From NCBI RefSeq assembly GCF_044704955.1, contig NC_091989.1, forward strand, positions 22,010,001-22,074,000: DNA of 64,000 bases. Reading direction: 5' to 3'. The notes under the pieces are model-generated. The model made no database searches. It had not been told where the DNA came from and was given only the letters and a program-made list of their open reading frames with translations. Shown in pieces: positions 35,049 to 60,935 of this stretch. The DNA comes from Pristiophorus japonicus (Eukaryota). Made by a program: the position numbers and the translations under genes. Within the stretch, counting starts at the first letter, position 1, and every line of letters begins with the position of its first letter.

Positions 35049-35145
35049 ATTATTAAATACTTTTGGACACTAAGTTTCGTCAGAGGCAGCTGTTCTAATA
35101 ATATCCGCAACATGATACCCTCCATTGGAAAACAACTCTCTTCAG
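35049..35145 (+). CDS. Probable ACOT exon 2 with start codon (ATG 35112; [12 protein letters not shown])
   Basis: Pyrimidine tract plus ctggctag acceptor; CAG|GTACAG donor; phase 1 matches the phase-1 acceptor at 41352; A at -3 of the ATG; lies in non-repetitive DNA. Confidence 0.6.
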
Positions 35146-59100: not shown

Positions 59101-60935
59101 TACTTCCCTCCATTATTACCGGAAAAGGGCAGGGAAGCTGATCCCAGGCCTCTGCATTTAAAACCATAGTTCAGAAGTGTAAGTAATATACTTACAATTT
59201 TCCCTCTCCCTAATTTGTGGATATGTCTGTTATCGGCTCATGCCTAAGATTGGGAAGTCAGCAATGTGGGAAATCATAGACTTTAAAAAAAATTTGTTCT
59301 CAGGATGTGGGCGACACTGGCAAGGTCGTCAGTTGCTCTGAGAAATTGGGTAGTCCTCCTTATCCTGTCATGCTCCCATTACGCCTGACCTTTAAATATA
59401 TTAGTATTTTTTTTAATTAAACATTTGTTGAATTTTATCTTTTGCACCCAACTCTCCCCAATCAGTATTAACAGATGTTCATGCTTTCAATTCCCTACTT
59501 GTCAAGTTCCCAATGTCAATGCGGCACTGGAGCTGCGCATGGATTCACTCTGGAGCATCCGCGATGTTGAGGCACGTTTAGTGAGTTGGTCACACCGCAG
59601 GTAAAGGTAACAAAGGAAGATAGGGAATGGGTGACCATCAGGCAGAGCAGGAGTAGGAAGGGGGTCCCCTGCGGTCATCTCCCTCCAAAACAGATATACC
59701 ATTTTGGATATTGATGGAGGAGATGGCTCATCAGGGGAAGGCAGCAGCAGCCATGTTCATGGCACCGTGGGTGGCTCTGCGGCACAGGAGGACAGGAAAA
59801 AGAGTGGGAGAGCTATAGTGGTAGGGGATTCTATTGTAAGGGGAATAGGTAGGCGTTTCTGCGGCCACAGTCGAGACTCCAAGATGGTATGTTGCCTCCC
59901 TGGTGTAAGGATCATGGAGGTCTCGGAGCGGCTGCAGGGCATTCTGGAGGAGGAGGGTGAACAGCCAGTTGTCGTGCTGCATATAGGTACCAATGATATA
60001 GATAAAAAAATGGGATGAGGTCCTACAAGCTGAATTGAAGTTAGATGTAGTCCTTACTACTAGGGGGATCAAGGGGTATGGCGAGAAAGGAGGAATGGGG
60101 TACTGAAGTTGCATGTTCAGCCATGAACTCATTGAATGGCGGTGCAGGCTCTCAAGGCCGAATGGCCTACTCCTGCACCTATTTTCTATAGCCTTCATGA
60201 GAAGGTGCCGAGGAGAGACAAGGGAGGATATTGAGATAGGAACTGAGTTAGCCTGTGTGTGATTGCTCCCCTGTAGGCTTACAAAACATTATTTGCACAG
60301 GTCTGGGAGTGGATCTCGGTGTGCACTCGCAATTGAGAAGTCTTGCATGGGACTTTAAGAAATTACTTAAGGCCTCCACAACGTGTTTGGAACTTGAATT
60401 CAGAAGCATCTCTTTGAGTTTGACTGCTCTGAAAATACACTTCCCTACCTTTTTACAACCAAATGTACTGCTGCTCAGTTGCTTCAGAAGTGAATTAGGA
60501 GGTACTAGAATGTAGGACAGTTCAAGAACTCTCAAAACCTTTGCTTTCTATCATGTGAAGGTTAGTATTTTGCAGATAGAAATTCCAGTGATGGCTGCCA
60601 GAATCCAAATTTCAGGAAGCTGTTATCTTCCTCCAATGTGGTAAAGATTTATTTTTCAAAACAAAAGATAAAAATTAAGAGGTGTTTTGTGAGAGTTTAT
60701 TCAGTTACTGGACACCCAGCAATCTGACAATTGTGCTAACTTCTTAAAATCTCAAGTTTACTAACTAATGTTTCCTTATTTTACACTGTTTCTTTCTGCA
60801 GTGTGTGTGTTGTGGGGAGGAGAGGCCAAACCTCATTCAGATGCTCAGGAAGACTCCTGGAAAAAGATTCTAGCATTCCTAGAAAAGCACCTCGTGCTTC
60901 AACACCCAGCTGCTATTGTCCAATCCAAACTCTGA
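35112..60935 (+). CDS. acot: Type-I acyl-CoA thioesterase / bile acid-CoA:amino acid N-acyltransferase (ACOT/BAAT) family gene; spliced CDS join(35112..35145,41352..41558,43270..43369,45735..45925,50734..50909,53108..53227,53849..53919,54243..54336,57779..57859,57972..58113,60802..60935), about 449 aa
   Basis: Exons joined by hand with GT-AG sites and matching phases sum to 1350 nt with no internal stop. Family motifs: [77 protein letters not shown] (Ser nucleophile), GEDDQNW (Asp), [14 protein letters not shown] (His), [17 protein letters not shown]; ends in SKL. The exact paralog is not assigned and the first coding exon is less certain than the rest. Confidence 0.93.
35870..37390 (+). mobile_element. 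Very old CR1 remnant interrupted by a MITE
   Basis: GPDGMHPR-like, AVDVV..DF.KA-like and WQMEFN..KCE-like patches. Confidence 0.65.
36216..36974. mobile_element. Harbinger-type MITE with internal long hairpin
   Basis: TIRs GGGCTGGAAAT / AATTCCAGCCCC; ATT on both flanks. Confidence 0.85.
37649..40510 (-). mobile_element. CR1 3' end (minus), split into 37649-37729 and 39915-40510
   Basis: ORF 40132-40509; the 3' UTR joins across taagatc|atggctgatc. Confidence 0.88.
37724..39917 (+). mobile_element. CR1 with ORF1 esterase C-terminus, APE endonuclease, linker and 3' end, but no RT domain
   Basis: [13 protein letters not shown] (SGNH esterase); YLNACSI, AITETWL, GVVYRPP, DFN, ILDLVL, SDH (APE); in-frame jump [12 protein letters not shown] near 39452; (TTCTTATG)n tail. 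Confidence 0.92.
41352..41558 (+). CDS. ACOT coding exon ([26 protein letters not shown]...SDSEGIVR)
   Basis: tttccatctag acceptor, GAG|GTTTGT donor; N-terminal domain of the BAAT/ACOT family; in-frame ATG at 41387. Confidence 0.93.
41642..42294. mobile_element. Harbinger-type MITE
   Basis: Imperfect TIRs GGGAGAATTTTAACCC / GGGTTAAAGTCCCCCC. Confidence 0.7.
42500..43100. mobile_element. GC-rich Harbinger-type MITE
   Basis: TIRs GGGGCTGAAATTGCC / GGCAATTTCGGTCTC; ATA duplicated at 42497-42499 and 43101-43103. Confidence 0.88.
43270..43369 (+). CDS. ACOT coding exon ([34 protein letters not shown])
   Basis: ttcacag acceptor, AG|GTAC donor, phase 1 to 2; SLGG.Y...PMGLLWS motif. Confidence 0.93.
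43855..44775 (-). mobile_element. CR1 RT/3' fragment
   Basis: ORFs 44001-44498 and 44549-44779. Confidence 0.92.
45735..45925 (+). CDS. ACOT coding exon ([12 protein letters not shown]...ERFYMAPG...GTMFFPP)
   Basis: ccttttag acceptor, CAG|GTAAAT donor, phase 2 to 1. Confidence 0.93.
46015..46766. mobile_element. Cluster of small fragments: CR1 tail (46015-46097), DeuSINE minus (~46135-46400), L2 (~46412-46590), MITE end (to 46766)
   Basis: Similarity to other copies in this window; GAAAATCCAGCCC TIR-like end. Confidence 0.65.
46770..49645 (+). mobile_element. Degenerate CR1 ORF2 (APE to 3' end) interrupted by RTE
   Basis: [44 protein letters not shown]. Confidence 0.9.
48549..48959 (+). 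mobile_element. RTE 3' fragment with 10-bp TSD GGATGAATGG
   Basis: TSD at 48539-48548 and 48960-48969; (GAT)n tail. Confidence 0.92.
50300..50570 (+). mobile_element. DeuSINE 3' half
   Basis: Matches 32130-32386. Confidence 0.85.
50734..50909 (+). CDS. ACOT coding exon ([37 protein letters not shown]...FYFE)
   Basis: ttttttag acceptor, GAG|GTAAAA donor; the most conserved block of the family. Confidence 0.95.
52273..52546 (+). mobile_element. Solo LTR, 274 bp (Gypsy-like)
   Basis: Perfect 10-bp terminal inverted repeat TGTAATGTAT...ATACATTACA; internal AATAAA; flanks CCATC/CCGCC may be a diverged TSD. Confidence 0.85.
53108..53227 (+). CDS. ACOT coding exon with nucleophile elbow GLSLG (Ser codon 53174-53176)
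   Basis: ttcgcag acceptor, CAT|GTAAGT donor, 120 nt, phase 0-0; [25 protein letters not shown]. Confidence 0.95.
53849..53919 (+). CDS. ACOT coding exon ([23 protein letters not shown])
   Basis: ttaccttag acceptor, TT|GTAAGT donor, phase 0 to 2. Confidence 0.88.
54243..54336 (+). CDS. ACOT coding exon ([31 protein letters not shown])
   Basis: Long pyrimidine tract plus cag acceptor, CAG|GTAAAA donor, phase 2 to 0. Confidence 0.88.
54425..54546 (-). mobile_element. Penelope-type terminal repeat with the 3' half of a hammerhead ribozyme
   Basis: Minus strand: GGGTC-ATC-GACCC GAAAC GTT AACTCTG...CACAGATGCTGCCTGACCTGCTGAG; truncated just before the CTGANGA box. Confidence 0.75.
55330..55895. 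mobile_element. Harbinger-type MITE
   Basis: Imperfect TIRs GAGGATGGAATTGGGTC / GACCAAACTCCAGCCCC; TSD not evident. Confidence 0.7.
56303..56867 (+). mobile_element. RTE 3' fragment with 11-bp TSD TTAGGGAAATA
   Basis: TSD at 56292-56302 and 56868-56878; [16 protein letters not shown]-terminal zinc-finger-like remnant; (GAT)n tail. Confidence 0.93.
57779..57859 (+). CDS. ACOT coding exon with catalytic Asp ([27 protein letters not shown])
   Basis: ttggcag acceptor, GAG|GTAAGT donor, 81 nt. Confidence 0.93.
57972..58113 (+). CDS. ACOT coding exon with catalytic His ([14 protein letters not shown])
   Basis: ccatttcag acceptor, CAG|GTGAGC donor, phase 0 to 1. Confidence 0.95.
59500..60037 (+). 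mobile_element. CR1 ORF1 SGNH-esterase fragment
   Basis: [28 protein letters not shown]. Confidence 0.9.
60038..60190 (+). mobile_element. Young HER1-type CR1 extreme 3' end
   Basis: Near-identical to 8725-8875. Confidence 0.9.
60802..60935 (+). CDS. ACOT last coding exon, ending ...IVQSKL* (PTS1)
   Basis: tttctttctgcag acceptor; [43 protein letters not shown] with stop at 60933-60935. Confidence 0.95.

What the first reader, a model, noticed from the sequence alone, without database searches (positions are those of the whole stretch)
35112..60935. One ACOT gene appears to encode both a mitochondrial presequence and a peroxisomal PTS1
Seen: splicing 35145 to 41352 gives [29 protein letters not shown]..., a 23-residue extension with no acidic residues and an RRY|S motif. 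A second in-frame Met (41387) sits at the start of the conserved domain, and the protein ends in SKL. Established: R-x-Y|S is the R-3 mitochondrial processing motif and SKL is the canonical PTS1; mammals split these locations among paralogs (ACOT2 mitochondrial, ACOT1 cytosolic, ACOT4 peroxisomal). Inference: skipping exon 35049-35145, or leaky scanning, switches between a ~449-aa mitochondrial form and a ~426-aa peroxisomal form from one locus.
Basis: partly seen in the sequence, partly recalled or inferred. Interest (0 to 1): 0.7.

Follow-up and report, generated by a model that had tools for sequence, protein, structure and literature searches.

The report
Shark thioesterase with two organelle addresses
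This sawshark gene encodes a fatty-acid-releasing enzyme that ends in a peroxisome address and starts with a half-length version of a leader kept across sharks, rays and chimaeras that likely acts as a mitochondrial address, so one gene likely serves both organelles, a layout already known from other enzymes.

Summary
Eleven GT-AG coding exons give exactly the 449-aa database protein P0011 ending in SKL, and the 35145-41352 junction is in spliced contigs of 3 of 4 runs. The gene groups with the fish Acot14-19 clade, apart from this shark's three-exon ACOT cluster. In 18 other chondrichthyan proteins the leader is 41-45 aa with 1 acidic residue in 770, which fits a mitochondrial presequence. 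Here the ancestral ATG reads ATT, so only 23 aa remain. The proposed switch is weak: no exon-skipping contig in 4 runs, start contexts do not favour leaky scanning, and Met24 is Met in only 10 of 25 relatives. Best reading: the 449-aa protein carries a weakened presequence and likely splits between mitochondria and peroxisomes. The layout is not unique: this shark's three-exon cluster and zebrafish relatives show it too. Localisation is untested.

The parts
26249..26498 (+). Non-coding exon 1 in a CpG-richer stretch; 5' end not mapped; holds a 38-codon upstream ORF from 26299
   Evidence: X22 contig covers 26249-26496 and continues to exon 3 with 97 letters between; GT donor after 26498; uORF; CpG o/e 0.62 in 26001-28000
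35049..35145 (+). Exon 2 (97 nt), the leader exon
   Evidence: AG/GT ends; its 3' end lies directly before exon 3 in contigs of X23, X1, X5
35052..35054 (+). ATT codon at the place of the ancestral start ATG; frame open and acid-free from here to 35111
   Evidence: tblastn aligns residue 1 (Met) of P0004 and P0005 to this codon; 18 orthologues start here
35112..35114 (+). First in-frame ATG (Met1 of the 449-aa form; Met21-23 in 13 of 18 long orthologues), A at -3
41352..41558 (+). Exon 3: rest of the leader with R-R-Y-S, GTG (Val14, 41357-41359) where 11 of 25 relatives have Met, Met24 (41387), start of PF04775
43270..58113 (+). Coding exons 4-11: 43270-43369, 45735-45925, 50734-50909, 53108-53227, 53849-53919, 54243-54336, 57779-57859, 57972-58113; catalytic Ser259, Asp346, His382 by alignment
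60802..60935 (+). Last coding exon ending Ser-Lys-Leu-stop (PTS1)
   Evidence: first AATAAA downstream at 61976

Best explanation
The gene encodes a type I acyl-CoA thioesterase of the fish Acot14-19 clade whose spliced mRNA includes exon 2 and codes for a 449-aa protein with a shortened N-terminal leader and a C-terminal SKL, and this one protein likely splits between mitochondria and peroxisomes because the leader is predicted to be a weak mitochondrial signal. Shown: gene structure, splice, both motifs, their conservation, and ATT in place of the ancestral start. Inferred: molecules caught by the mitochondrial import machinery would be cut at R-R-Y|S to a mature start at Ser18, close to where short bony-fish relatives start. 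Molecules that fold first would be taken up by PEX5 through SKL. A Met24-started 426-aa form, from rare skipping or leaky scanning, would add only a minor peroxisomal share. In both organelles the enzyme would free CoA from acyl-CoA; substrate untested.
For: Leader of 41-45 aa in 18 chondrichthyan proteins: 1 D/E in 770 residues, 1 of 180 distinct column states versus 106 of 1039 in the mature domain (Fisher p 5e-7; related species, so not independent), 5-9 K/R, at only 47% mean identity versus 72%. R-3 pattern at the equivalent site in 9 of 18. No PTS2 pattern in 16 of 16 tested. Canonical PTS1 in 16 of 25 proteins, SNL/SQL in 6 more. Exon 2 included in 3 of 4 runs directly and in X22 by length. 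Seven of 25 relatives have no Met in exon 3 before the domain yet keep SKL, SKM or SNL, so a switch to an exon-3 Met cannot be the general route. Catsharks and Mustelus X1 also start at the Met21 position and keep an Arg-rich, acid-free start. Folding state can redirect a protein with both signals to peroxisomes (PMC4585086, passages). Zebrafish Acot14-18 have PTS1 and mostly mitochondrial WoLF PSORT scores (PMC8919083 text and Table S4 rows).
Against: No localisation data and no TargetP/MitoFates run. The 23-aa leader has only 3 basic residues, the first Arg at 15, and a modest hydrophobic moment (0.53; orthologues 0.39-0.83); relatives X1 and X5 have an Arg codon where the window has Lys7. 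K/R enrichment in the leader is not significant (p 0.14). N-terminal signals usually dominate PTS1 fully, and unused PTS1 motifs exist; human ACOT1/2 end in SKV yet ACOT1 does not reach peroxisomes. Annotated isoforms of several relatives join exon 3 to something other than exon 2 or start at an exon-3 Met (P0006, P0007, P0153, P0154, P0161, P0185, P0188), which favours a transcript-level switch in those species. The X9 contig starts at 41351, as expected if several upstream exons exist.
Confidence: 0.45

Rival explanations
1. One reading: the 449-aa form is purely mitochondrial and a separate 426-aa peroxisomal form comes from exon-2 skipping or leaky scanning to Met24.
For: No ATG lies between the two Mets; skipping makes Met24 the first in-frame ATG; Met24 starts strand 1, so the short form could fold; 18 of 25 relatives have some Met in exon 3 at or before the domain start; skip-type isoforms are annotated in relatives; this is a textbook route (PMC4585086 Fig. 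4 legend).
Against: 0 of 4 runs show an exon 1-exon 3 contig (contigs drop rare forms, two runs are from other species and all tissues unknown); first ATG A-3, second C-3; Met24 is I/L/K in 15 of 25; residues 21-23 lie in a block of mean pLDDT 96 and would be lost.
Confidence: 0.2
2. The leader is a vestige: loss of the ancestral ATG removed the working mitochondrial signal, and the 449-aa protein is peroxisomal only.
For: First 20 codons lost; only 3 basic residues remain. Among 18 long orthologues, 13 have Met21-23, and the 5 without it have Met35 (4) or Met27 (1), as if Met21 were the downstream, non-mitochondrial start. The two lamniform sharks are annotated without the leader. The three-exon cluster could supply mitochondria.
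Against: The strongest amphipathic stretch of many orthologues begins at residues 17-21, mostly in the part that is kept; the R-3 site is intact; Met21-started catshark and Mustelus proteins remain presequence-like. The Met pattern rests on few independent events.
Confidence: 0.2
3. The ATT at 35052 is still used as a non-AUG start, giving a minor 469-aa form with the full presequence for mitochondria, while the 449-aa AUG form is the peroxisomal one.
For: ATT has A at -3; the 20 codons stay open, acid-free and similar to orthologues (55-62% identity over 34 residues); non-AUG starts make organelle isoforms in fungi (PMC9549241, passages).
Against: A recent loss would look the same; exon 3 differs from relatives X1/X5 by only about 4%, so there is no power to show selection. 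ATT was not checked in RNA.
Confidence: 0.12

Closest known systems
Zebrafish Acot14-19 (multi-gene fish clade of type I ACOTs)
   Same: Same clade (support 0.964 with zebrafish Acot18, gar, coelacanth); 51% identity to Acot18; PTS1 plus predicted mitochondrial scores already noted (PMC8919083).
   Different: Sharks and rays have one or few copies with a long leader exon; no localisation experiment for any member was seen in the passages read; start-codon turnover was not found in my searches.
Human/mouse ACOT1-6 cluster (ACOT2 PDB 3HLK, ACOT4 PDB 3K2I)
   Same: Same two-domain fold and catalytic triad (E 2e-78 and 6e-79); human ACOT2 also has a mitochondrial location with a PTS1-like SKV end.
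   Different: 11 coding exons here versus three (three is recalled for ACOT1-6; shown for BAAT in PMC6934887). The shark's own three-exon cluster on C4 is the likelier counterpart and falls in another clade.
Single-gene mitochondrial/peroxisomal enzymes: carnitine acetyltransferase, rat and marmoset AGT; HMG-CoA lyase and AMACR (last two recalled)
   Same: N-terminal presequence plus C-terminal PTS1 in one gene, split by alternative starts, splicing or competition.
   Different: Different enzyme family; here the route is not shown, and the first start codon is mutated.

Membership tests
Type I ACOT / BAAT family | N-terminal PF04775 and C-terminal PF08840 domains | tested here: met
   Both above curated cut-offs on single exons; full-length match to ACOT2/ACOT4 structures
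Type I ACOT / BAAT family | Ser-Asp-His triad (Ser type, not the Cys of BAAT) | tested here: met
   Ser259, Asp346, His382 align with ACOT2/4; triad positions are recalled
Type I ACOT / BAAT family | Acyl-CoA hydrolysis and substrate range | not testable with these tools
   Needs an assay
Fish Acot14-19 clade | Groups with zebrafish Acot18 and bony-fish relatives | tested here: met
   FastTree, 103 sequences, 405 columns, clade support 0.964; midpoint root
Mammalian ACOT1-6 orthologue | Three coding exons and grouping with the three-exon cluster | tested here: not met
   11 coding exons; own three-exon genes fall in another clade. No named mammalian sequence was in the tree, so this is indirect
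Cleavable mitochondrial presequence | No acidic residues, net positive charge | tested here: met
   0 D/E, 3 K/R in 23 aa; 1 D/E in 770 residues of 18 orthologues; 82 of 902 random peptides pass the same filter
Cleavable mitochondrial presequence | Amphipathic, Arg-rich N-terminal helix | tested here: inconclusive
   Moment 0.53, first Arg at 15; no helix in the model, low pLDDT
Cleavable mitochondrial presequence | R-3 processing motif (definition recalled) | tested here: met
   Present; 9 of 18 orthologues at the equivalent site; 5.8% by shuffling the leader
Cleavable mitochondrial presequence | Import and cleavage | not testable with these tools
   No predictor or experiment available
PTS1 protein | Accessible C-terminal SKL | tested here: met
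   SKL-stop; residues 440-449 low pLDDT; 16 of 25 relatives canonical
Dual targeting by exon skipping | Exon 1-exon 3 junction in RNA | tested here: inconclusive
   0 of 4 runs show it; contigs drop rare forms; joint table was filled by repeats
Dual targeting by leaky scanning | Weak first and strong second start context | tested here: not met
   First ATG A-3, second C-3 with A+4; context rule recalled

The most novel reading that the evidence does not exclude
The ancestral start codon was weakened to ATT rather than lost: non-AUG initiation makes a small full-presequence mitochondrial pool, while the downstream AUG makes the peroxisomal bulk. Across 400 million years of sharks and rays, gains and losses of in-frame starts (Met1, Met21, Met35, Met44) would then tune the organelle ratio of one ancestrally two-address ACOT, of which the mammalian one-paralog-per-organelle set is a later split.
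Probability: 0.12. Interest if true: 0.55.

Novelty: new member of a known kind. Interest (0 to 1): 0.3.

Why it matters
If the reading holds, a type I ACOT lineage kept in fishes carries both organelle addresses in one gene, and the same layout recurs in the shark's three-exon cluster and in 3 of 76 distant representatives. That would suggest the mammalian split among paralogs is secondary. The natural series of leader lengths and start codons across sharks and rays is a ready test set for how a presequence competes with PTS1. The mechanism class is textbook, and zebrafish relatives were already flagged, so the surprise is modest.

Tried and rejected
1) 'The second copy lost the leader exon' (subfunctionalisation). 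Exon 2 has one match in the genome, none in the 70 kb around the copy, and the copy is annotated as 426 aa (P0001). Not accepted: a 200-N gap lies in its first intron between two simple-repeat arrays. In X23 the only full exon-3 contig carries the copy's T at 41500, while the only upstream contig includes exon 2 and begins at 26451, one base after the first difference between the copies. The exon may sit in the gap; unresolved. 2) PTS2 in the leader: no match in 16 of 16. 3) Skate 438-aa Logan proteins as proof of skipping: not used, since one shares its longest-contig length with a 472-aa form and may be a start-calling choice. 4) Laying 20 kb: repeats filled the tables, only 15 of 1672 joints shown, no use for the skip. 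5) No run was on record as RNA; 5 of 24 runs were laid. 6) Homolog search with the exon-2 peptide: no hit. 7) ESM Atlas on residues 1-30: no usable hit. 8) Earlier findings: none by sequence or words; 8 shown from this genome, none relevant. 9) Two reviews sought by recalled ids were not held; PMC8847149 passages gave no R-3 definition. 10) P0010 and P0184 (52 and 48 aa, unrelated cluster members) were ignored.

Full report
Observation. The window holds one spliced gene on the + strand. A homolog search with exon 41352-41558 returned 9 chondrichthyan proteins of 33 candidates. Cluster look-up gave P0011, a 449-aa UniRef protein labelled Pristiophorus japonicus. Eleven GT-AG coding exons from 35112 to 60935 translate to exactly P0011. 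The 23-aa acid-free extension, R-R-Y-S, Met24 at 41387 and terminal SKL are all as described.

RNA support. None of 24 listed runs was on record as RNA; 5 were laid, all as assembled contigs. In one search the letters before exon 3 are the 3' end of exon 2 in X23, X1 and X5; the X9 contig begins at 41351 with nothing before it. In one search one X22 contig covers exon 1 (26249-26496) and exon 3 with 97 letters between, the length expected with exon 2. X22 and X23 are nearly identical to the window; X1 and X5 differ by about 4% in exon 3 and X9 by about 10%. No contig joined exon 1 to exon 3 in 4 of 4 runs. Contigs drop rare forms, so this limits abundance, not existence.

Family. Pfam PF04775 and PF08840 pass their cut-offs; human ACOT4 and ACOT2 structures match over the full length with the triad in place. 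After the chondrichthyan hits, the best matches are bony-fish proteins, many labelled Acot16, 18 or 19, at about 50-57% identity (best 120 of 1097 listed). In a tree of 103 sequences (25 named, 2 from the own C4 cluster, 76 near-full-length representatives picked from the 150) the gene joins zebrafish Acot18, gar and coelacanth with support 0.964, apart from the shark's three-exon genes. No named mammalian sequence was in the tree.

The leader. Exon 2 is open from 35049, and the ATT at 35052 aligns to the start Met of orthologues. Eighteen long chondrichthyan proteins, including a chimaera, have leaders of 41-45 aa with 5-9 K/R and 1 D/E in 770 residues, at 47% mean identity against 72% for the mature part. 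Fast change with a fixed ban on acidic residues fits a mitochondrial presequence; the species are related, so the p value (5e-7) overstates the case. No PTS2 pattern was found. The window keeps only the rear 23 aa: 3 basic residues, moment 0.53. Catsharks and one Mustelus isoform also start at this Met, and two lamniform sharks are annotated without the leader. Composition alone is met by 82 of 902 random peptides, with the R-3 pattern by 5. The model shows residues 1-17 largely unstructured and strand 1 at 24-28. Cleavage before Ser18 would leave a start 11 residues before Pro29; in 66 of 82 bony-fish hits the nearest Met lies 9-13 residues before that Pro, with Mets within six residues of it excluded from the count.

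The second start. Among 25 chondrichthyan proteins the Met24 position is Met in 10; an earlier exon-3 Met, GTG here, is present in 11; 18 have one or the other; 7 have neither yet keep SKL, SKM or SNL. All 7 have a Met at 21-27 in exon 2. The first ATG has A at -3 and the second C at -3. Annotated isoforms in chimaera, catsharks, skates and sevengill shark do bypass exon 2 or start in exon 3, so a transcript-level switch is plausible in relatives but is not shown for this copy.

Not one locus. The genome holds an inverted second copy about 245 kb away with 93-97% identity over long blocks, 22 coding differences and pN/pS 0.65; its product equals P0001, 426 aa. Its exon 2 is missing from the assembly, but a gap and the X23 evidence leave that open. 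A three-exon ACOT cluster lies on C4. One gene there has a 31-aa extension with 6 Arg and no acidic residue, a weak first and a strong second ATG, and by exon order ends in SKL; another has an extension but no PTS1 (no RNA check). By a crude filter, 23 of 76 distant representatives have a presequence-like start, 34 a PTS1 and 3 both.

Mechanism. Shown: structure, splice, motifs, conservation, ATT. Inferred: the 449-aa protein has a weak presequence and divides between mitochondrial import and PEX5 uptake after folding (0.45). Rivals: separate 449/426 forms (0.2), peroxisome-only with a vestigial leader (0.2), non-AUG start at ATT (0.12). That some member of this lineage uses both addresses is more likely than any single route; I put it near 0.75.

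Literature. PMC8919083 (passages and Table S4 rows): zebrafish Acot14-18 and 20 carry PTS1 and may also go to mitochondria; human ACOT2 is mitochondrial with SKV. PMC4585086 (passages): hierarchy of signals, with exon skipping and leaky scanning as standard routes. PMC9549241 (passages): carnitine acetyltransferase and non-AUG cases. bioRxiv 10.1101/705327 (passages): mammalian ACOT locations, and the statement that type I Acots occur only in mammals, which these data contradict. PMC6934887 (passages): BAAT/ACOT tree, no mention of sharks. Searches listed no study of a shark ACOT of this kind; hits were mostly seen as listings only, and subscription papers are not held.

Verdict. A real, correctly read feature with conserved signals, of a known kind. 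The proposed switch is unproven and the mammalian contrast is misplaced. Interest 0.3.

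Noticed in passing
window 41440-43270: In run X23 a contig joins 41440 to exon 4 (depth 22.8 against 23.5 for the full exon), an internal GT donor that removes 118 nt and shifts the frame; possibly a decay-coupled isoform.
   Followed up: no
G000:C13:22316280-22361667 (L006-L010): Inverted second copy, 14 amino-acid differences from Met24 on, pN/pS 0.65, with Ser at Gly191 and Asp at Glu271, both invariant in 10 of 10 relatives; assembly gap in its first intron.
   Followed up: partly
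G000:C4:187054063-187067450 (L015, L027, L020): Three-exon ACOT gene with an Arg-rich acid-free extension, weak first ATG, strong second ATG and SKL: a better leaky-scanning candidate than the window's gene. Neighbouring copies look broken (L016, L017, L018, L024).
   Followed up: partly
window 26299-26415: 38-codon upstream ORF in exon 1, weak context, ends before the donor.
   Followed up: no
window 35311-35407: Intron sequence just after exon 2 matches the N-terminus of Mustelus isoforms, which treat it as coding.
   Followed up: no
window 20710-21976: Open frames resembling an LTR-retrotransposon integrase region (resemblance recalled); many LINE reverse-transcriptase-like fragments elsewhere, the longest 527 aa at 15247-16827 on the minus strand.
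   Followed up: no
window 32500-33400: GA-rich simple-repeat array in intron 1; much longer arrays of this type flank the gap in the second copy.
   Followed up: partly
window 12901-13809: 303-aa open frame not related to the ACOT gene, probably from a mobile element.
   Followed up: no
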